Origin: a virus | Lineage: Duplodnaviria > Heunggongvirae > Uroviricota > Caudoviricetes | Reading direction: 5' to 3' (one strand) | IMG/VR virus record: IMGVR_UViG_2541047697_000006 | DNA: 38,591 bases | Shown: positions 1 through 38,591 of the stretch, one piece after another | How the letters are laid out: each line of letters starts with the position of its first letter | Position numbering within the stretch: the first letter of the stretch is position 1 | The notes under the pieces: model-generated | Told to the model about the DNA's origin: nothing | Databases searched by the model: none | Seen by the model: only the letters and a program-made list of their open reading frames with translations | Position numbers and translations under genes: made by a program

Positions 1-1743
1 ATGAAATACTCTAACAGCAATCTTATTATAAAAATAATACATCTACTTTCACAAAAAAGAGATGGTCTGATTTTGCTTGATGGGAACTGGGGTACAGGAA
101 AGACTCACTTTATCAGAAAAAAATTTCCCAAGTACTATGATAAAAACATTTTCTATTATATTTCCTTACTAGGTGTTAAATCCTTATCAGATTTCAAAGC
201 TAAAATTATAGATTGTTACTACCTGCAAGATATACAAACATTTAAATCCGGGCTCGAAAGTCTATCAGGGATAGGTAGCATTGCCAGCGGCTCACCTGCA
301 AGTGCCAATATTATTAACAGCATGTTTAATTCTATTGGTGCAAGTGTTAGAGAAAACATTTTATCAAAACTGGATGGTATTTTTATATTGGATGATATAG
401 AGAGAATATCCGAAACATCATTAGTTAGTGAAATTTTGACATATTGCCATTCTCTTTATATGTCCGAGATGAACTCAAATTTAGACTTTATTATTATTAC
501 CAATACATCAACTGAGTCTGGTTTAAAAATAGAACACAAGGAAAAACTCATTGCAGAAACACTTCATTATAATCCGCATCCAGAGGAAATATTGGATATA
601 GATATAATAAATGGAAAGCTTTCCCAATTCCCACAGGAAGATAAAATTCTCTTTGAGGATATAGTAAAAAATAACAACATAGTTAACATCCGTATTTTGA
701 TGCGTATTTTGGACACAGCTACGCCATTATATGAATACGTTAAATCATATCCTCATCTTTCTTGGAGAATACCATCAACAATTCTTTTAAACTCAATATG
801 CTCTTTCTTCATTTTATTATTTTTGCATAATCACTCTCTTGAGGAGCTTCTCAAGGACCAAGATCCAACATTTTTATTAAACACCGAGGAATCAAGTGAT
901 AGTGAGAGAGTGCTATGGTTAGCATTGAATAATTACAAAATAAAACCTGAGATTAAAAGGTATTATAGCGGACAAGCTTCATTAAATGACATATTGGATG
1001 TTTTGTTTTATGAAGCAAAACCGCTTACTATGAGAGAAATTGCAATATCAGTACGTCCAGAATTACATGAGATAAATGAAAAGGAACTTTCAAATACACT
1101 TGTCGACTTAATTTGCCGTAAGATTGATTGTAATTTCTATGAATGGATAAAAGCGTTTCAGAATTATGAGTATTTAACCACACATAAATACCTACCAAAA
1201 TCACCAATTATAACTCTAAAGTTTGTCACTTCGATTCTGAACGGATTCACTGACAATGAAGTTGCAGAATGCTTTGAGCTATACTCACTTGATAGAAAAA
1301 ATAGCTTAAATAGTGGTTTTGAAGATAGCAAATTGCTGTACTCAATTTCATTTTACCGTTATAAAAGCACAATCAAAATGCGTGAGCTCAACACTATTAG
1401 GTTGCAATTAGAATTGAATGGCTGGGCATCATTCAATGCTAACCAATTAACCACTTTAGATCCATTCGGAAATTATAAGCCGCTTGAAGTGCTTGGTGTA
1501 TCATTTGTAACAAAATGCGTTTTAAAGAATTGGGCAGTTAATGATATTGAGCAATTTAGTTCTTTCTTGCGTAGCAACTATCAAATCAGCAACATAAAAC
1601 AATTCGCCACTAATGAAAAAAACAAACTTATTTATCTTAGTCAAAAACTTGATATTTTTTGCCTTTCCTATAAAGAAAGCTTTAAATTTGGAGCCATATA
1701 CGATCTAAACAGAACAGTTAAAATTGCCATTAACAAATTATGA
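1..1743 (+). CDS. KAP-family P-loop NTPase (candidate abortive-infection/defence protein)
   Basis: Walker A GNWGTGKT at residues 28-35 and Walker B-like FILDDIER about 100 aa later, the N-terminal layout typical of KAP NTPases (PifA group). Very AT-rich compared with flanking phage genes. ORF starts exactly at window position 1. Confidence 0.6.
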   Translation: MKYSNSNLIIKIIHLLSQKRDGLILLDGNWGTGKTHFIRKKFPKYYDKNIFYYISLLGVKSLSDFKAKIIDCYYLQDIQTFKSGLESLSGIGSIASGSPASANIINSMFNSIGASVRENILSKLDGIFILDDIERISETSLVSEILTYCHSLYMSEMNSNLDFIIITNTSTESGLKIEHKEKLIAETLHYNPHPEEILDIDIINGKLSQFPQEDKILFEDIVKNNNIVNIRILMRILDTATPLYEYVKSYPHLSWRIPSTILLNSICSFFILLFLHNHSLEELLKDQDPTFLLNTEESSDSERVLWLALNNYKIKPEIKRYYSGQASLNDILDVLFYEAKPLTMREIAISVRPELHEINEKELSNTLVDLICRKIDCNFYEWIKAFQNYEYLTTHKYLPKSPIITLKFVTSILNGFTDNEVAECFELYSLDRKNSLNSGFEDSKLLYSISFYRYKSTIKMRELNTIRLQLELNGWASFNANQLTTLDPFGNYKPLEVLGVSFVTKCVLKNWAVNDIEQFSSFLRSNYQISNIKQFATNEKNKLIYLSQKLDIFCLSYKESFKFGAIYDLNRTVKIAINKL

Positions 1744-2223
1744 GAACATCCACTTTACCAAAAAATCATTTTTTGGTGGGGTAATACCTGGCGATTAACA
1801 AATCTGAAAACAAAGCTCTAATACAGCGGCGAAAGCACGATTTACTTGTGTATATTTAGTTCAAGACGTGCTTCGCCGTGCATCTCTCACCATTTCCCTC
1901 CAGAGCAACATTAAAATACTTCATATAATATAGATATAAGTATCATCTAGCCAAAAACCATTTGAATCCACATGCATTCCAGCTTTTATTGATACTCTAT
2001 CTGATATATCATCCCACCAATTCAGCCATTAATGCTATGACAGGAATTCTAGTTATTCATCATTTTGAGCTGATGATGTAATAACGCAACTCATTAATAT
2101 CTAATGTTTTTTCACTCACCCCTATTACTTCTGTGGCGCTTGCAAAAAATCATTCAATCTGAAGCAGGTAATTAATCTCGCCACTTACTATCAGTTTCGG
2201 GAAAGTACACTAAACATGCTTTT

Positions 2224-2517
2224 TCACCCAAGATTAACTAACCGCCAGACCAGCAGACACGCCACCACCGGCGCAGCAAAATCCATCAGGCTTGCCACAT
2301 CCCACGCGCGCGGATCAAAACCGCCCCACCACGGCATATTCATACGCTTGCCATGCCCGAACATTTCAATCCAGCGATATTCTGCCTGGGTGTGTTCCCG
2401 CGCAATGAAGAACGTACAACCGGCTATCGCACCGTAAGCCCAGTTTCCGGTAAAAAGACCACCCAGTACCTGTGCGACCACAGCGCAAAGTGCGTGATGA
2501 ATTGGGGTTTTATCCAT
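2224..2517 (-). CDS. Small two-TM membrane protein, translationally coupled to tailspike
   Basis: ATG immediately follows the tailspike TAG stop. Two hydrophobic stretches (ALCAVVAQVLGGLF..., FAAPVVACLLVWRLV). Overlapping + strand ORFs treated as antisense artefacts. Confidence 0.5.
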   Translation of the reverse strand: MDKTPIHHALCAVVAQVLGGLFTGNWAYGAIAGCTFFIAREHTQAEYRWIEMFGHGKRMNMPWWGGFDPRAWDVASLMDFAAPVVACLLVWRLVNLG

Positions 2518-5103
2518 CTACTCTATCTCTTTTGCTTTTTTAATTATCAATTCAAGCTCTGTTAAACGAGATTCAATACGTTCACACCTTCTTCGCTGGA
2601 ATGCAGCCTCCAACCACAAACATTCATCTGGACGCAATCCCCAACGCTCACCAGCATGTACAACCAGTTCCGTTTCACCAGTATCGTATTCTTCAAAGTA
2701 TTCGTGAACGATGTCTTCTCCTTCAGGGGATTTAGCTATAAATGACACCTTGCGCTGTGCCATTACAGGTTGGTACTCATCATCCCATTTATCATGACAT
2801 AGCAAGCCAAATCTTGTTCCATCTATCCCCTTTGCAAGAAACGCATCTCTTACCTGCTGTGCAATTGCTCCGAAATGCCAACGAGCAGTATCCGAACCTT
2901 TAGCCTTAATATCGGACAACCACTGGTAAACGATAATATTTACGTCACCCCATGCGTCAAGAATTGCATCCTGATCCACCTCCATGATTTCTGAAAGTTG
3001 CTCTACTGTCAGTGGCTTTGTTTTCAATGTCTGGTCTGAAGTATTTATTGCCCCATTAGTTGCATATACTTGCGTCCACCGTTTAGATGATGTCCCACAT
3101 GATGACGTATTATCTTTATTAGCACTTATATAGCCATTAACCTCCGCTGACTGACCGATATACGAATATGAAGATGTTGATAAGGGAGATTTAAATATCC
3201 ATTGAGCATTGGTAAAGTCATAAATACCGGTATCACCTTTTTCACTAACATGAAAAGTTACATTCCGTAACGTATTCTTTGCATCATAACGGGCGGCTTG
3301 TGTTGTTGCCCTCGAAACAGTGAATCCTTTGTCATCAAGGTTTGCCTGCTCTATGACTTCACCACCAGGCATAATTTTACCAAGGCTTAACAAACCAGAG
3401 TTAGTGACAATATCATGGGTTGAATCAATGATAATACCAGGCTGATTTCTTGATGTTGTTTTTACATGCATGACCTGTTGTGGCATTAATGTGTAAAATG
3501 TAGTTTCTCGCCCACTATCACCATCTGGTATGCCATTTGTATTCCCCATTACAAGGTCATACCCACCTGCAATCATACGGAAAAACATTGCTTCTGGTTC
3601 ATATGTAAGATTGCTAACATCTGGCGTTCCGGTATCATTTGGATCTGCTATTTCATAGGCTCTTCCTGCACCTGCCTGTATTTGCTGCACCCCAAGATAA
3701 ACACCATCAAGTGTGTACTGATGCAAATATTTTCTGGTTGAAGAATATGCAGATCCAGCCTGACAAAAATAAATAGCAGTACCGTCACACGCAACTGTTT
3801 GCATATCCCTCACAAAATCGGCAATTTCAAATTCAAAAGTTGCTTCATTACGATAATCGTAATTGTACGCCTGCGGGTTAATAAATTTGCTGGTATCAAA
3901 TACTTTTACATAATAGCGAATTTGATCTGGTGTTGATGGGCTCTCACCAGGGCCAACATAACGTTTTGCTGTAGTAATCAGCCATCGACTCATAGGGTCG
4001 GTGCATAAAACATTTACCTGATTCTCGTAACCATCTTCCCATATGAGAAAAAACTCTGGTTCAATTTCACCACCATCAGTAGGGGTGAATCTGGTGATAT
4101 ACTTTGCGCGATCCTCTCCTTTAGCTGTGCCAGCTAACCCCCATATCTGTAACTGGCCTCTTGTGTTACGAAAACCAACGCGCCCTATGGTTAAACCAAG
4201 ACATTGATGTCCTAATTCTCTACTACCTTTAGTCTCCCAAAGAGGAGTTAACTCTTCATTCCCAAACCAATTATAAGCAACAACTTTATTAACTTCGTCA
4301 CCAGAACTAACGCTGCCACTCACATTTACCAAGCAATAAAGAACACTGTCATAATAATCAAGAACAGCACCCTGTATGACAGTATTTTTAATTGTTGCCA
4401 GTCGCAACCCTGACTTAACATGATTAGGAGTAGAAGGTCTGAAACCTGTATACATCCCCTTTTTTATAGTTTGTATTCTTTTTTCAGTAAAATCAGCATC
4501 TGGCAGTAATCGATTCTCTGTGCGAAAATAGCCATTTATATACTTATTTCCATCAAAAACTTGATCTGTTATATATGTATTACCCCTTAGATCAACAATC
4601 CTTCCTGTGATTTGTTTTTCTAACTCTTGAAAAGATAATGTGTCATCGGTGATGCCATCACCTTTTGCTCCCCATCCGCGAGGGTCAGCGTCATCACGCC
4701 ACCGAGACATCTGCAATTCATGATATTTTTTAGCACCTTCCGGGTCTTCTAATTGTTGTCTTAATTGGTCAGGATCGTACTTAAGCACATTCGGAAAATA
4801 GAACTGCTGCGTACCATATGCATCGTAAACAGCCATAGAATGGCCTTGCACGGTAACGAATTTGGAAATCTGTCCGTTGTATACCGGGTATCCAGCAGCA
4901 TTGATAACGATTGGCTGTGGCACCTGAACATAAGTACCATCTTCTCGTTCCAGATATACTGGAATCTGGTTTTCTGGATTTACCGGATCTGTGTCAATCT
5001 TACCGATATAAATTTTTCCATTTGCTACGGTTTTAAAAGAACTAGCCATTGTGAAGAGTTGCGATGGCATACCTATCACAACATTTGGGGTTATATCAGG
5101 CAT
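2518..5103 (-). CDS. Tailspike protein: P22 gp9-type head-binding N-domain, beta-helix-like central domain, C-terminal intramolecular chaperone (peptidase S74-like) domain
   Basis: N-terminus MPDITPNVV...[21 protein letters not shown]...[13 protein letters not shown]...NVLKYDPDQ matches the P22 tailspike head-binding domain as recalled. [11 protein letters not shown] motif. C-terminus has NTSDQTLK followed by about 170 aa typical of auto-cleaving chaperone domains. Start chosen at internal ATG 5103 (AGGA upstream), not ORF-track start 5196. Confidence 0.85.
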
Positions 5104-5454
5104 ATTAGTCATCCTGTTTGAAGATTTAGATATTGAAGAAAACGGAATGACTGCAGACAACGATGCAATTGTTTTGAAAAATAACCTTCTATTCATTTAA
5201 AAACCATGCAACATGAACAAAACGATTATTTTACAATACTCAAGAATCTTGATCAACAGGCATATTATTTATGCGCTTAATGCGTCACTTACAAAAATAA
5301 AAACAAGTAATACCTTTATTCCTATCGTCCATGATTTTTATTTTCAAACATTATTAAATAACAATTCCTATTTATAATATCTGTCATTTAATTTTCTCCA
5401 AATACAAGGAATCGCCGCAGCATTGCCGCAGTGATGTATTATTAATCAAAAAGA

Positions 5455-5471
5455 TATGACCACCGTGGTCT
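5455..5471. promoter_or_regulatory. Candidate Mnt operator: 13-bp palindrome GACCAC-C-GTGGTC about 65 bp upstream of the mnt-like gene
   Basis: Perfect inverted repeat around a central base at 5457..5469, resembling the P22 O-mnt core (CCACGGTGG) as recalled. Confidence 0.4.
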
Positions 5472-5534
5472 TATTGAGGATGCAACCAACAGATAATAAG
5501 ATGCCGATCCACTCACAAAAGCGAGGCATCAAGA

Positions 5535-11305: not shown

Positions 11306-12006
11306 CAGTCAATCAGCCCATGTAATCTAAGTGCTGTTTCAAGCGCCAGAATACGCTGCCGCGCCTGCTGCAAACCTGTAGCGAGAGCTGCGACTTCGGA
11401 TTGTGTGTATGTAGTGCCGACAGTGTATGACTGGTTAGCGTTGAATGAGCCAAGAAGTGGCGTACCTGTGGCTGCAGTCCATCCGGTATTTCTTGCTCCA
11501 ACAACCTGAATTCCATCAACTGAATATGATGTTTTTACATCCAGCGGTGACGCAAGAGACTGCGATTTGGTTACAGTTTTCGATACGTAATCACTCTTAA
11601 TGTCAGATACATCGCTTTCTACGCCATCCAGTCTTTTGTCAACAGTGACCAGATGCGCCTGAATATCGATAACCTCATCCAGCAAGTAATCAACATCGCT
11701 ACGCAGTACGACTATCTTCCCTTCGGCGGTTGTTAACCTGACCTCAAGGAGATTTATCGCTTTTGTGTTTGCGGTGATTCTTGCATCGTGGTCAGCCAGT
11801 TCGACATCCTGTTCATCGTTTTTTACTTGGGCATCATAAGCGCCCTGACCAGCCTGATTTGCCTTTCCAGCAATTGCACCGACATCAGCCCCCTGATTAA
11901 TGACATACAGCAGGTAAGACTGGCTGAAGATATTGCGTGGAAGGATTGATGTATCGAGCCGCGTCGCCTGAACAATAACCGGTGTGTTGAGATTCGAATC
12001 AGCCAT
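11305..12006 (-). CDS. Tail needle protein, P22 gp26-like
   Basis: 233 aa; MAD...VIVQATRLD...[48 protein letters not shown] matches P22 gp26 as recalled. Confidence 0.85.
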
Positions 12007-23440: not shown

Positions 23441-23516
23441 TGGTGCTGATTAACGGACTTGAACCGCCACCCATTCGCTTACAAGGCGACTGCTCTACCA
23501 TTGGAGCTAAACCAGC
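23441..23516 (-). tRNA. tRNA-Thr (anticodon UGU), phage-encoded
   Basis: Hand-folded cloverleaf: acceptor GCUGGUU/AAUCAGC, D-arm GCUC-CAAUGGUA-GAGC, anticodon loop CUUGUAA, T-loop UUCAAGU, 3' ACCA. Resembles E. coli tRNA-Thr. Confidence 0.6.
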
Positions 23517-23521
23517 ATGTT

Positions 23522-23596
23522 TGGCGGGACAGCGTGGACTCGAACCACGATAAGAAGGTTAACAGCCTTCCGTAATGACCTTTATACGACTGACCC
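23522..23596 (-). tRNA. tRNA-Asn (anticodon GUU), phage-encoded; stems slightly imperfect
   Basis: Acceptor GGGUCAG/CUGUCCC (one U-U), anticodon stem GAAGG/CCUUC, loop CUGUUAA, T-arm CGUGG-UUCGAGU-CCACG, 3' GCCA. Confidence 0.55.
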
Positions 23597-25756: not shown

Positions 25757-26629
25757 TCATGCAGCTTCCCTCCCGAAGTCGAAATAAAGCTGCCCTCCAA
25801 ATATTTCGCATGACTCAGAACAAGAGCCGGTATCGAATCTTTTAGCTCGTACCATGTCCTGATACAGGGCTTGATAATCATTTTCTGAATACATTTTCGC
25901 GATACCATCCAGCGACATTCTTCCTCGGTACATAATCTCCTTTGGTGTTTCCCGATGTCCGTCACGCACATGCGATCCCGTGATGACCTCATTAAAAACA
26001 CGCTGCAATCCCTCCTCATCTTTGCAGGCAAGTCCGATTTTTTGCGTTGATTTTTTAATGCAGAATATGCAGTTACCGAGATGTTCCGGTATTTGCAAAT
26101 CGAATGGTTGTTGCTTCCACCATGCGAGGATATCTTCCTTCTCAAAGTCTGACAGCTCAGCAAGATATCTGATTCCAGGCTTTGGCTTTAGCCGCTTCGG
26201 TTCATCAGCTCTGATGCCAATCCACGTGGTGTAATTCCCTCGCCCGAAATGGTCATCACAGTATTTGGTGAAGGGAACGAGTTTTAATCTGTCAGTGCAG
26301 AACGCGCCGCCGACGTATGGAGTGCCATATTTCTTTACCATATCGATAAATGGCTTCAGAACAGGCATTCGCGTCTGAATATCCTTTGGCTCCCATACCG
26401 TATAACCATTTGGCTGCCCAGGCTCTGGGTTGATATCAACCTGCAATACAGTGAGCGGTATATCCCAGAACTTCACAACTTCGCGGATAAACCGATATGT
26501 CATCGGGTGTTCACAACCTGTATCCATGAAAACGTAATGCACGTCTTCACCTGCCTGTCGCTTTTGCTCCATTAGCCAGAGCAAATATGCTGACGTCCTG
26601 CCACCGGAGAAACTAACGACATTTATCAT
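25757..26629 (-). CDS. PAPS-reductase-family PP-loop ATP pyrophosphatase-like protein
   Basis: Start at internal ATG 26629 ([20 protein letters not shown]...): SGG.TS PP-loop motif; ATG overlaps the ninB stop. Confidence 0.65.
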
Positions 26630-27066
26630 GCAGCCTTGTCTCCCCATCTTGCTTTCCACTCCAGAGCCAGTCGCGCTTCGTCTGACCACTTAACGCCACG
26701 TTCTGTACCGAATGCCTGTATAAGCTCTAATAGCTCCGCAAATTCGCCTACCCGCATCCTACTGGTTGACTGGCCTATTACCACAAAGCCAGTCCCGGCA
26801 AGGTTAGGAACAACGTCCTGCTGCTTTAAGGCTGCGGTAAACACACACTTCCAGCTTTCTGCATCCAGCCAGCGACCATGCCATTCAACCTGACGAGAGA
26901 CGTCACCAAGGCAAGCCCAAAGCTTTCGATTCTGGTCTAAGCTGCGGTTGCGTTCCTGAATGGTTACTACGATTGGTTTGGTTGGGTCTGGAAGGATTTG
27001 CTGTACTGCGTGAATAGCGTTTTGCTGATGTGCTGGAGATCGAATTTCAAAGGTTAGCTTTTTCAT
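26626..27066 (-). CDS. ninB: NinB (Orf-family recombination mediator)
   Basis: MKKLTFEIRSPAHQQNAIHAVQQILPDPTKPIVVTIQERNRSLDQNRKLWACLGDV... essentially lambda NinB as recalled. Confidence 0.9.
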   Translation of the reverse strand: MKKLTFEIRSPAHQQNAIHAVQQILPDPTKPIVVTIQERNRSLDQNRKLWACLGDVSRQVEWHGRWLDAESWKCVFTAALKQQDVVPNLAGTGFVVIGQSTSRMRVGEFAELLELIQAFGTERGVKWSDEARLALEWKARWGDKAA

Positions 27067-37425: not shown

Positions 37426-38591
37426 ATTTTCTTAGCCCATAATTCTGCTGCGTCCTGCTGCTCGGGGATGTAGTCATACTGGTCATAAACAGCCAGCATC
37501 CCCGTGAGCTTATGCCCGAGAATTTTCTCCGAAACATGAGGTGCTACTCCAAGTTCAGCCATTTTTGTTTTGCACGTTCTGCGCAGATCGTGCAATGACC
37601 AGTGCTCGCCCCCCATAACATCTTCTACCTGTTCTGCAATAGAAATTAGGGTGCTGGCAGACATTGGGCGATTTTCCTGTAACTTAGCCGGAGGAAATAC
37701 GATTGACAGATCAGGGTATAGATCAAATACCTGCTGCAAATAATCTGCTGCGAGTTTTGAAATACCGCGAACAAATCGCTTACGCGTTTTTGAGTTCTCT
37801 TTCGGTATAGTCCATTCTCTAGACTTCAGATCAAAATCAGTCTTCTTAGCCAACCGCAATTCAACACCACGACAACCAGTTAACGCAACAATTCGAATAA
37901 ACATTTTGTTTTGCCACGACATTTTCGTTTTGTCGATGGCATTCCAGAATGCGCCTATCTCAACATCGTTAAGAAAACGTTCGCCATTATTAGGTCTACT
38001 GCCGATATCATTAATCTCAAGAAGCATCAGTGCATTTGATGTTATGCGTTTTCTGCGTAACGCATAGCGGATCACTTGCTTCATCTTCACCAGTACATTT
38101 CCCGCCTGTACGGGTGACCCACCTTTTGTTATGCGAATGAATATTTGCTCCCACTCTACAGGACTCATTTCATCTGCAATCAGCTTACCGTAATTGTCGG
38201 TGATGTGAAGTTTCAGCATCCGCTTCCAGTATTCGTACTTCACCATCTCTTTTACTGAAGGAGTATCAAACCACTCGTCAACTAGGGTACTGATGCTTGG
38301 GGAACTTGATGCAATATCTTTGGCTTTCTTCCTTTGCATGGCTGGGTCTTTACCCTTCTCCAACCACCCTTTACACTCCTCCAATGCATCGCGAGCTTCC
38401 TTAAGCGACATCTTCCCGTACGTTCCGAGCTTTAACCTGGCGGGTTTTCCATTGAAACGATAGCGGTATTGAAAGGTGATAAGTCCCTTCGGGCTGATCC
38501 TGACAGAAAGTCCGCCTCCGTCAGCTATCTCCTCAGGTCCCTCATATGCTTTTCCGGATATACGTCGCAGCTTTGTATCGTTGAGTGCCAT
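37383..38591 (-). CDS. int: Tyrosine integrase, P4 family
   Basis: 402 aa; N-terminal arm-binding-like domain; C-terminal catalytic region with HxLRRT-like (HDLRRTCKT), HxxG-like (LGHKL) and tyrosine (AVYDQYDY) motifs. Start codon is the last 3 nt of the window. Confidence 0.88.
   Translation of the reverse strand: MALNDTKLRRISGKAYEGPEEIADGGGLSVRISPKGLITFQYRYRFNGKPARLKLGTYGKMSLKEARDALEECKGWLEKGKDPAMQRKKAKDIASSSPSISTLVDEWFDTPSVKEMVKYEYWKRMLKLHITDNYGKLIADEMSPVEWEQIFIRITKGGSPVQAGNVLVKMKQVIRYALRRKRITSNALMLLEINDIGSRPNNGERFLNDVEIGAFWNAIDKTKMSWQNKMFIRIVALTGCRGVELRLAKKTDFDLKSREWTIPKENSKTRKRFVRGISKLAADYLQQVFDLYPDLSIVFPPAKLQENRPMSASTLISIAEQVEDVMGGEHWSLHDLRRTCKTKMAELGVAPHVSEKILGHKLTGMLAVYDQYDYIPEQQDAAELWAKKIQECSEINPLSLQN

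What the first reader, a model, noticed from the sequence alone, without database searches (positions are those of the whole stretch)
1..1743. AT-rich KAP-family P-loop NTPase at the prophage edge
A 580-aa protein with an N-terminal Walker A (GNWGTGKT) and DDIER Walker B matches the KAP NTPase layout; that family includes PifA of the F plasmid (abortive infection of T7) as recalled. Its composition is markedly AT-rich relative to the phage genes, indicating separate acquisition. It occupies the slot beyond the tailspike where P22-like phages carry conversion cargo, and is convergent with a small two-TM protein. It is a candidate single-gene defence or abortive-infection module.
Basis: partly seen in the sequence, partly recalled or inferred. 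Interest (0 to 1): 0.7.

Follow-up and report, generated by a model that had tools for sequence, protein, structure and literature searches.

The report
Prophage-borne KAP-like NTPase, candidate phage defence
An intact, strongly AT-rich gene at the very end of an E. coli P22-like prophage encodes a soluble KAP-type P-loop NTPase fused to a fast-evolving helical domain. It is a divergent member of an untested candidate anti-phage family, so it is a reasonable but unproven single-gene defence candidate.

Summary
Window 1..1743 (+) is an intact 580-aa ORF with GC 31.7%, against 46% for the window. It carries GNWGTGKT, DDIER and an NxR motif. Pfam KAP_NTPase is its best family (30.2 bits, cut-off 20), but only model positions 6-72 of 293 align.

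An exhaustive profile search shows it is a divergent enterobacterial branch of a large family of about 580-620-aa proteins. That family includes PADLOC's PDC-S49, one of 145 untested defence candidates. Profile alignment to a bona fide PDC-S49 member runs end to end (hhalign 99.45%).

There are no conserved TM helices and no partner gene. The C-terminal 330 aa form an all-alpha domain with no known fold.

I mapped the att site outside the window. The gene lies about 690 bp inside the prophage, between att and the tail genes, and is read against the late operon. The same att-arm/gene block occurs in 71 of 5,426 complete E. coli genomes, in both lambda-like and P22-like prophages.

Relatives are cargo in lambda-like and Mu-like prophages or solitary islands. 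In three loci, SRAP and UmuDC flanks are 80-97% identical while the NTPase is only 35-50% identical.

The best reading is an NTP-switch sensor that blocks superinfecting phages, probably in a PifA-like abortive manner. Function is untested. This is a new member of a known kind, of moderate interest.

The parts
1..1743 (+). 580-aa KAP-like P-loop NTPase gene, stop codon included. It is intact here.
   Evidence: ORF. PF07693 30.2 bits against cut-off 20. PDC-S49 E=3e-16. phrog_4740. RefSeq WP_000877736.1, 'P-loop NTPase fold protein'. GC 31.7%.
82..105 (+). Walker A / P-loop, GNWGTGKT (aa 28-35), with the Trp typical of KAP proteins.
   Evidence: G28, W30, G31, G33, K34 and T35 are invariant in 28 subfamily members. 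W30, G31, G33 and K34 are invariant in 49 distant relatives. PifA has GAWGSGKT.
229..336 (+). Gly/Ser/Ala-rich insert (aa 77-112) between Walker A and Walker B. This is the position where many KAP NTPases carry TM helices. Here it is not hydrophobic enough for a TM segment.
   Evidence: pLDDT below 50 for aa 77-108. KD(11) is at most 1.06. The segment is conserved within the subfamily but variable in the wider family, with entropy 2.95.
379..405 (+). Walker B strand and motif, IFILDDIER (aa 127-135).
   Evidence: D131, D132 and R135 are invariant and E134 is at least 90% conserved across 49 relatives. PifA has VVMDDLDR.
685..705 (+). NIRILMR motif (aa 229-235). It corresponds to the NxRxxKR consensus of the wider family and to TPR in PifA. 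It is a probable sensor or arginine-finger helix at the start of the lid.
   Evidence: R231 is invariant and N229 nearly invariant. The broad-family consensus is NxRxxKR. The PifA sequence reads STPREI.
751..1740 (+). C-terminal all-alpha domain (aa 251-580) with no recognisable fold. It is the fastest-evolving part and the presumed specificity or sensor region.
117..123 (+). A7 homopolymer tract. Strains A3 and A26 have A6 here, which splits the gene into two CDS.
   Evidence: The first difference between the window and A3 is at position 123. A3 is annotated with two CDS.
1744..2223 (.). Convergent intergenic region, GC 35.8%. It has a 10-bp perfect inverted repeat at 1757-1777. A 53-bp stretch at about 1785-1837 is 79% identical to the sequence just downstream of the Citrobacter homologue, which lies at or near the 3' end of umuC.
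2224..2517 (-). 97-aa protein with two hydrophobic segments (phrog_1443, unknown function). It is the last gene of the tailspike/tail-fibre operon. It is a neighbour, not a partner.
   Evidence: It is present without the NTPase in 53 phage records and about 1,900 E. coli genomes.
2518..5196 (-). Tailspike gene with a P22 head-binding N-terminus and a Peptidase_S74 chaperone C-terminus. It marks the end of the late operon.

Best explanation
The gene is accessory cargo (a 'moron') of a temperate phage. It encodes a soluble, single-polypeptide KAP-type P-loop NTPase that most likely protects the lysogen, and so the prophage, against other phages.

Shown:
- The ORF is intact and compositionally foreign, and is transcribed against the late operon from the att side.
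- The NTPase core is ASCE/AAA+-like with invariant Walker A, Walker B and NxR residues.
- The C-terminal half is all-alpha, has no known fold and diverges faster than the N-terminal half.
- There is no partner gene.
- The protein is homologous end to end to the PADLOC candidate family PDC-S49.
- It recurs in lambda-like, P22-like and Mu-like prophages and in solitary islands.

Inferred:
- The C-terminal domain recognises a component of an infecting phage.
- Recognition is coupled to NTP binding and hydrolysis through K34, D131/D132/E134, R135 and R231, probably with oligomerisation as in related STAND/AAA+ switches.
- The activated protein then stops infection.

No nuclease, protease, TIR or pore domain is present. 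The most likely output is therefore a PifA-like abortive response, meaning loss of membrane integrity or energy and nucleotide collapse. The conserved Gly/Ser/Ala-rich insert or a host factor may be involved. Direct sequestration of an essential phage protein is the alternative output.
For: Family:
- PF07693 is the best Pfam hit and lies above its cut-off in this protein and in 28/28 subfamily members.
- The motif grammar G.WG.GKT / DD[LI][DE]R / [NT]xR is shared with PifA.

Link to defence candidates:
- 48/49 distant full-length relatives hit PDC-S49, best 4e-92.
- hhalign of the subfamily profile against bona fide PDC-S49 member P0174 gives probability 99.45% over 515 columns.
- PDC families were defined from genes embedded in BREX, DISARM and type I RM systems.

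Precedent:
- Single-gene KAP NTPases with about 320-aa unknown C-terminal regions confer Walker-B-dependent phage resistance in E. faecalis (PMC12632615).
- PifA is a KAP member without TM helices that aborts T7 infection (PMC13001434).

Context:
- The gene lies inside the prophage, about 690 bp from att, beyond the tail genes and in reverse orientation.
- The att arm and the gene are linked in 71/5,426 genomes, within different prophage types.
- Relatives were found on 37 IMG/VR contigs, including Mu-like phages.
- In Cronobacter the gene forms a solitary island.

Arms-race signature:
- SRAP, UmuC and UmuD flanks are 80-97% identical while the NTPase between them is 35-50% identical.
- The C-terminal domain diverges faster than the NTPase domain.
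- In E. coli the flanking SRAP gene has decayed while the NTPase stayed intact.
- Distribution is sporadic (1.3% of genomes), with occasional disruption by a frameshift or IS1.
Against: - No phenotype exists for this protein, its subfamily or PDC-S49.
- The Pfam KAP match covers only model positions 6-72 of 293. PADLOC models align only to the N-terminal half, at E=3e-16.
- Homology to PifA beyond the P-loop is not detectable.
- No effector domain, no conserved TM helix and no membrane signal were found, so the output step is pure inference.
- No homologue exists in 50,697 sequenced phage records by tblastn.
- Expression in the lysogen was not examined, and no strong promoter or SD sequence is evident.
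- At 32% GC the gene may well be H-NS-silenced (my inference).
- Repeated linkage to SRAP and UmuDC allows a DNA-damage-related reading.
Confidence: 0.55

Rival explanations
1. The gene is a DNA-damage/SOS-associated accessory NTPase that works with the neighbouring SRAP (YedK-like abasic-site protein) and UmuDC translesion polymerase. It would not be an anti-phage protein.
For: In four loci with 35-71% identical homologues, the gene sits between SRAP (same strand, 64-82 bp gap) and convergent umuCD. In the Citrobacter locus a DinI gene lies just beyond umuD. The E. coli copy still carries a SRAP remnant upstream, and a short match to the sequence downstream of the Citrobacter homologue near the umuC 3' end.
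Against: - The gene is a compositional alien between those neighbours (32-33% GC against 51-55%).
- It diverges far faster than they do.
- It remains intact where SRAP has decayed and umuDC is absent, as in E. coli.
- It stands alone in Cronobacter and other genera, and in Mu-like phages.
- No conserved operator or LexA box lies upstream.
Confidence: 0.1
2. The gene is lysogenic-conversion or selfish cargo with another role. It could be an addiction or stabilisation module for the prophage, a factor in competition with plasmids or other mobile elements rather than phages, or a host-fitness factor.
For: From my recollection of the original family description, KAP NTPases are mostly plasmid- or MGE-borne and sporadic. 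The gene lies in the slot where P22-like phages carry conversion genes (established knowledge). It is fixed with this att arm in all 71 carriers. PMC12632615 notes that phage exclusion may not be PifA's primary function.
Against: There is no antitoxin-like partner and no small ORF over 49 aa upstream. There is no secretion signal and no conserved TM helix. The family-level association is with defence loci. The fast-diverging sensor-like domain fits antagonistic coevolution.
Confidence: 0.2
3. The gene is an inert passenger. It would be horizontally acquired, probably silenced AT-rich DNA on its way to decay, with no current function in this lysogen.
For: The closest genomes, A3 and A26, carry a frameshifted copy (A7 to A6), and another strain has an IS1 insertion. 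Truncated forms exist in databases, for example P0016 and P0032. The translation-initiation context looks weak.
Against: The ORF is intact in the window and in most of the 71 genomes. Full length (about 580 aa) and all catalytic residues are preserved from 98% down to below 20% identity, which implies purifying selection. The neighbouring SRAP gene decayed while this gene did not.
Confidence: 0.1

Closest known systems
PADLOC PDC-S49, a single-gene 'phage defence candidate' (Payne et al., bioRxiv 10.1101/2024.01.29.577857)
   Same: The two are homologous end to end, with hhalign probability 99.45% over 515 columns to member P0174. They share the same size of about 580-620 aa and the same two-part architecture. 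The Walker A, Walker B and NxR residues are the same invariant set. Both are single-gene.
   Different: Identity is only about 18-25%. PADLOC HMMs align only to aa 24-291 at E=3e-16, so this branch is at the edge of the models. This gene is prophage cargo next to att rather than embedded in an RM, BREX or DISARM locus. PDC-S49 itself is untested.
PifA of the F plasmid (KAP NTPase, abortive infection of T7)
   Same: Both fall in the same Pfam family, and both have the motifs G.WG.GKT, DD[LI][DE]R and [NT]xR. Neither has TM helices (PMC13001434). Both are MGE-borne, with a long helical C-terminal region and no enzymatic effector domain.
   Different: hhalign aligns only 29 columns around the P-loop, at probability 53%. 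PifA matches PF07693 at full length with 148 bits, against a partial 30 bits here. PifA is 741 aa and lies directly downstream of its repressor gene pifC, on the same strand. No triggers or partners are known for the window protein.
Enterococcal and gut-metagenome KAP NTPase defence proteins such as EF_KAP (PMC12632615)
   Same: These are single genes with a KAP NTPase followed by a C-terminal region of about 320 aa with no known domain. Their defence depends on Walker B. The layout is the same as here.
   Different: EF_KAP has two N-terminal TM helices and is reported as non-abortive. The window protein starts directly with the NTPase and has no conserved TM helix.
Tmn (YobI-family transmembrane NTPase) and QatA (KAP NTPase of QatABCD)
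   Same: Both are P-loop NTPases of the same broad clade used in phage defence.
   Different: The window protein has no PADLOC hit to Tmn or QatA models. A YobI-ATPase Pfam hit appears in only 1 of 49 relatives. It has no TM hairpin and no QatBCD-like neighbours.
STAND/Avs antiviral NTPases
   Different: The window protein has no NACHT or NB-ARC profile match above threshold. It has no N- or C-terminal effector domain and is much smaller.

Membership tests
KAP NTPase (Pfam PF07693) | Profile HMM score above the curated gathering threshold | tested here: met
   30.2 bits against a cut-off of 20, E=3.5e-7. It is the best family in 28/28 subfamily members and matches 40/49 distant relatives.
KAP NTPase (Pfam PF07693) | Alignment over the whole 293-position domain model | tested here: not met
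   Only model positions 6-72 align, to aa 7-70. PifA aligns over positions 2-290 with 148.5 bits.
KAP NTPase (Pfam PF07693) | Signature motifs: Trp-containing Walker A G.WG.GK[ST], Walker B hhhhDD[LI][DE]R, and a downstream [NT]xR(xxKR) helix | tested here: met
   The protein has GNWGTGKT, FILDDIER and NIRILMR, and the motifs are invariant in the family. The same motif grammar occurs in PifA. Treating these motifs as the family signature rests on my knowledge of the family plus the PifA comparison.
KAP NTPase (Pfam PF07693) | Two or four TM helices inserted in the NTPase domain between Walker A and Walker B. This is typical but not universal, and PifA lacks them. | tested here: not met
   The insert at aa 77-112 has KD(11) of at most 1.06. 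The only strongly hydrophobic helix, aa 257-275, is not conserved as such, with median KD 0.98 in 49 relatives. No dedicated TM predictor was available.
KAP NTPase (Pfam PF07693) | ASCE-type P-loop fold related to AAA+ and STAND | tested here: met
PADLOC PDC-S49 | Match to the PDC-S49 HMMs over most of the protein | tested here: inconclusive
   E=3.2e-16, but only aa 24-249 (models are 619-629 long). Distant relatives of the window protein match at full length, with P0174 at 4e-92.
PADLOC PDC-S49 | End-to-end homology with a bona fide member | tested here: met
   hhalign of A2 against P0174 gives probability 99.45%, E=4.8e-22, over 515 aligned columns. hmmsearch with A2 finds P0174 over positions 7-580.
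PADLOC PDC-S49 | Demonstrated anti-phage activity | not testable with these tools
   The authors describe the 145 PDC systems as untested. No paper mentions PDC-S49 or WP_000877736.
PifA-type exclusion system (F plasmid pif locus) | Sequence homology to PifA beyond the P-loop | tested here: not met
   hhalign gives 29 columns at probability 52.6%.
PifA-type exclusion system (F plasmid pif locus) | Adjacent PifC-type repressor gene | tested here: not met
   No ORF longer than 49 aa lies in the 738 bp upstream. That stretch holds only a decayed SRAP remnant. The downstream neighbour is the tail operon.
Tmn / YobI-family NTPase | YobI-ATPase profile match and a two-TM hairpin inside the P-loop domain | tested here: not met
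   The window protein has no PF20693 hit, and only 1/49 relatives has a weak one. There is no PADLOC Tmn hit and no TM hairpin.
STAND (NACHT/NB-ARC, Avs-like) | NACHT or NB-ARC profile match plus a separate effector domain | tested here: not met
   NACHT appears only as a sub-threshold hit in 1/28 members. The protein starts at the NTPase, and the C-terminal domain has no enzyme-like fold.

The most novel reading that the evidence does not exclude
The protein could be an 'effector-less' immune NTPase. It would be a soluble KAP/PDC-S49-type switch whose helical C-terminal domain both senses and neutralises a phage component, or which acts through its conserved Gly/Ser/Ala-rich insert on the membrane. 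That would be a mechanism distinct from PifA, Tmn and the STAND systems. It would sit in an allele-swapping hotspot between conserved SRAP and umuDC genes, from which prophages capture new specificities.
Probability: 0.15. Interest if true: 0.7.

Novelty: new member of a known kind. Interest (0 to 1): 0.42.

Why it matters
If the gene is active, it would give the first phenotype for a very large family that so far has only been predicted. The profile search found 7,791 cluster representatives at E<=1e-3. That result would cover PADLOC's PDC-S49.

It would also add a soluble KAP-type NTPase from Gram-negative prophages to the few KAP defence proteins studied so far (PifA and the enterococcal KAPs). 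The naturally diverged alleles, 35-50% identical inside near-identical SRAP/umuDC flanks, offer a ready-made set for mapping specificity to the C-terminal domain.

In practical terms, the gene is present in about 1.3% of complete E. coli genomes, including clinical isolates. It could therefore affect phage-therapy host range.

Tried and rejected
- Partner gene left of the window. I read the 738 bp between thrS and the ATG in strain A3. It has no ORF over 49 aa and no Rfam match. It holds only a frameshifted SRAP/YedK remnant. I rejected a two-gene system.
- The 97-aa two-TM protein as a partner. It is the terminal gene of tail-fibre operons in many lambda-like phages and about 1,900 genomes that lack the NTPase. 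Rejected.
- TM helices. Kyte-Doolittle scans flag only aa 257-275 (KD 2.09), and the equivalent helix has median KD 0.98 in 49 relatives. I rejected it as a conserved TM segment, although no dedicated predictor was available.
- Direct relationship to PifA. hhalign aligns only the P-loop.
- Solved-structure relatives by sequence. None were found with the single sequence or the profile.
- Sequenced phages. tblastn against 50,697 phage records found nothing, and only two plasmids matched.
- Conserved operator or LexA box upstream. A CTG-N12-CAG palindrome in E. coli has the wrong spacing and is not conserved in homologous loci.
- Alternative cargo at the same att arm. None was found. All 71 genomes with the arm carry the gene.
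- Literature. No paper mentions PDC-S49 or the RefSeq accession. The DefensePredictor supplements list other KAP proteins but not this one. The original KAP family paper is not held.
- Other defence genes among ten accessory ORFs of the window. PADLOC gave only weak PAPS-reductase-domain similarity to SspD and BrxP.
Full report
**1. The observation**

Window 1..1743 (+) is a 580-aa ORF that starts at the first base of the window. The window runs from this ATG to the start of an integrase gene at 38591. It is therefore a predicted prophage cut at gene boundaries.

It is 99.9% identical to the chromosome of E. coli strain A3. That let me read what lies to the left of the window.

- An in-frame TAA lies 21 codons upstream.
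- RefSeq annotates the same 580-aa product, WP_000877736.1, in other strains.
- 27 of 28 homologues begin at the same Met.

So the ORF is complete. The gene has GC 31.7% and GC3 29.1%. The window is 46.4% and the portal gene 50.9%. GNWGTGKT (aa 28-35) and DDIER (aa 131-135) are present. With this base composition, 580 stop-free codons have a chance probability of about 1e-20 (my arithmetic).

**2. Where the gene sits**

The prophage lies between thrS and arpB. I aligned both junctions with the uninterrupted K-12 locus.

- A 23-bp direct repeat, ACACGAAAGATCACATACAAAGA, marks the crossover. It lies 29-51 nt upstream of the thrS start codon.
- Left of the left copy, and right of the right copy, the sequence is K-12-like.
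- The phage end next to thrS carries a copy of the distal thrS upstream region that is about 85% identical to the host's.
- A 28-bp motif, AAATTGGTACACAATTTGGTACACAAAT, occurs on both arms. These are probably integrase arm sites (inference).

The NTPase gene therefore starts about 690 bp inside the element. It lies between att and the tail genes and is read towards the late operon.

The late operon ends with the tailspike gene at 2518..5196 (-), which has a P22 head-binding domain. A 97-aa ORF at 2224..2517 (-) follows it. From established knowledge, this is the position where P22 carries gtrABC.

The 97-aa protein has two hydrophobic segments and belongs to phrog_1443. It is the terminal gene of tail-fibre operons in 53 phage records and about 1,900 E. 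coli genomes. Nearly all of these lack the NTPase. It is a neighbour, not a partner.

**3. What the protein is**

*Family searches on the single sequence*

- Pfam KAP_NTPase is the best family, at 30.2 bits against a gathering score of 20. Only model positions 6-72 of 293 align.
- PADLOC gives PDC-S49 at E=3e-16 over aa 24-249.
- PHROGs gives phrog_4740, of unknown function.
- NCBIfam gives nothing.

*Size of the family*

The word-indexed search found only 36 clusters. Most are enterobacterial and about 580 aa long. The exhaustive profile search found far more:

| E-value cut-off | Cluster representatives |
|---|---|
| <=1e-3 | 7,791 |
| <=1e-10 | 5,269 |
| <=1e-30 | 163 |

Most of these are 550-620 aa and align end to end.

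*Link to PDC-S49 and KAP*

- Of 49 sampled relatives, 48 hit PDC-S49 (best 4e-92, full length) and 40 hit PF07693.
- hhalign of the subfamily profile against bona fide PDC-S49 member P0174 gives probability 99.45% over 515 columns.

The window protein is therefore a divergent enterobacterial branch of the KAP-like family that PADLOC calls PDC-S49.

*Conserved residues*

Across these relatives the invariant residues are W30, G31, G33, K34, S55, D131, D132, R135, K182 and R231. All lie in the N-terminal half. The broad consensus NxRxxKR and the two Walker motifs follow the same pattern as PifA, which has GAWGSGKT, MDDLDR and TPR. Even so, hhalign aligns only 29 columns between this family and PifA. 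PifA itself matches PF07693 at full length.

**4. Structure**

AlphaFold2 with the family alignment gives mean pLDDT 84.8. Only aa 77-108 are disordered.

- The Gly/Ser/Ala-rich insert between the Walker motifs is not hydrophobic enough for a TM segment.
- The one strongly hydrophobic helix, aa 257-275 (KD 2.09), is not conserved as such. The median KD is 0.98 in 49 relatives.

The family is most likely soluble, like PifA (PMC13001434).

**5. Context elsewhere**

*In E. coli*

The 701-bp att arm, the NTPase gene and the 97-aa gene travel together in 71 of 5,426 complete genomes. They sit at the end of lambda-like prophages at thrS and of the P22-like prophage of the window. In one strain they lie in the Qin region. 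No other cargo was found with this arm.

*The upstream remnant*

The 'empty' upstream DNA contains a frameshifted remnant of a SRAP/YedK-like gene (tblastn E=1e-17, aa 80-206).

*In other genera*

- In Citrobacter and three other loci, an intact SRAP gene precedes the homologue and umuCD converges on it.
- In those loci the NTPase gene has 32-33% GC between neighbours of 51-55%.
- Its protein is only 35-50% identical between loci, while the flanks are far more conserved:

| Protein | Identity between loci |
|---|---|
| SRAP | 80-90% |
| UmuC | 95-96% |
| UmuD | 91-97% |
| NTPase | 35-50% |

- In Cronobacter the gene is a solitary island between housekeeping genes. More distant relatives are likewise solitary.
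- IMG/VR holds 37 viral contigs with relatives. In the close ones the gene is the terminal gene of the predicted prophage.
- Distant relatives sit in Mu-like prophages between the late activator and the endolysin.
- No homologue occurs in 50,697 deposited phage genomes.

**6. Mechanism**

*Shown*

- The NTPase core is invariant.
- The helical C-terminal half evolves faster (entropy 3.00 against 2.41; identity 17% against 29%).
- The protein is solitary and MGE-borne, and its orientation is independent of the late operon.

*Inferred*

The C-terminal domain senses a component of an incoming phage. NTP binding and hydrolysis switch the protein on, probably with oligomerisation. Infection is then blocked.

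No effector domain exists. I therefore favour a PifA-like abortive outcome, meaning membrane or energy collapse. Sequestration of a phage protein is the alternative.

*Precedents*

- PifA, described as a KAP member without TM helices that aborts T7 infection (PMC13001434).
- Single-gene KAP NTPases with unknown C-terminal regions of about 320 aa, whose defence depends on Walker B (PMC12632615).

*Confidence*

- About 0.55 that the gene is an anti-phage (or anti-MGE) module.
- About 0.2-0.25 for the specific abortive output.

**7. Rivals**

- *A DNA-damage role with SRAP and UmuDC.* The synteny is real. Composition, rate of divergence and the gene's independence from those neighbours argue against it.
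- *Another conversion or selfish role.* This cannot be excluded.
- *An inert passenger.* A3 and A26 have an A7-to-A6 frameshift and one strain has an IS1 insertion. But conservation of length and catalytic residues down to below 20% identity argues for function.

**8. Comparison with known systems, and novelty**

The protein passes the Pfam threshold for KAP and has the family's motifs. It fails full-length alignment to the model and lacks the TM insert.

It is homologous end to end to PDC-S49, a family predicted by 'guilt by embedding' and explicitly untested. It is not PifA, Tmn/YobI, QatA or a STAND protein by any test I could run.

No paper mentions this protein or PDC-S49.

I rate it a new member of a known kind, a good experimental candidate rather than a surprise. 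The conserved-flanks, diverged-centre pattern and the absence of any effector domain are its most interesting aspects.

Noticed in passing
Outside the window: L001 11291-11393 and L003 24643-24821 (about window -709 to -607, and beyond 38591): The prophage att core (23 bp, ACACGAAAGATCACATACAAAGA) lies 29-51 nt upstream of the thrS start codon, inside the thrS leader/operator region. The phage end supplies a replacement copy of the distal thrS upstream region, about 170 bp long and about 85% identical. Both arms carry the 28-bp motif AAATTGGTACACAATTTGGTACACAAAT.
   Followed up: partly
Outside the window: L001 about 11545-11918 (window about -455 to -82): There is a frameshifted remnant of a SRAP/YedK-like gene (aa 80-206, tblastn E=1e-17) directly upstream of the NTPase gene. 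Intact SRAP precedes the homologues in Citrobacter and other loci.
   Followed up: yes
L005, L010 and L032 (homologous loci): SRAP (80-90%), UmuC (95-96%) and UmuD (91-97%) are highly conserved between loci. The KAP-like gene between them is only 35-50% identical and has 32-33% GC against 51-55% for its neighbours. This looks like an allele-swapping or fast-evolving hotspot.
   Followed up: partly
window 117-123: The A7 tract is A6 in strains A3 and A26, which frameshifts the gene there. Another strain (NZ_OZ001728.1) has an IS1 insertion in the module. I cannot tell whether the A7/A6 difference is real variation or an assembly error.
   Followed up: partly
L037 6944-8599 and L044 6944-8572 (IMG/VR Mu-like prophage contigs): Distant relatives (25-29% identity, phrog_4740) sit between the late transcriptional activator and the endolysin of transposable Mu-like phages, downstream of the transposase genes.
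   Followed up: partly
window 2518-5196 (-): The tailspike is mosaic, with a P22 head-binding N-terminus, an endosialidase-type N-terminal extension and a Peptidase_S74 intramolecular chaperone C-terminus. Its GC3 is only 30.5% and there is a GC dip at 5001-5500.
   Followed up: no
window 23441-23516 and 23522-23596 (-): Two phage-borne tRNA genes, tRNA-Thr(tgt) and tRNA-Asn(gtt), lie between the Q antiterminator and the lysis genes.
   Followed up: no
window 25757-26689 (-): A PAPS-reductase-family ORF in the nin region hits the PADLOC SspD (E=1e-14) and BrxP models weakly. This is probably shared-domain similarity only.
   Followed up: no
window 1757-1777: A perfect 10-bp inverted repeat, ACCAAAAAAT/ATTTTTTGGT, lies 14 nt after the stop codon. 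It may be a weak AT-rich bidirectional terminator between the convergent genes. I did not fold it.
   Followed up: no
L012 (E. coli KK05-19, Qin prophage region): The same att-arm, NTPase and 97-aa block lies next to truncated Qin tail-fibre genes (tfaQ, pinQ) rather than thrS. This suggests inter-prophage recombination or a chromosomal inversion.
   Followed up: no
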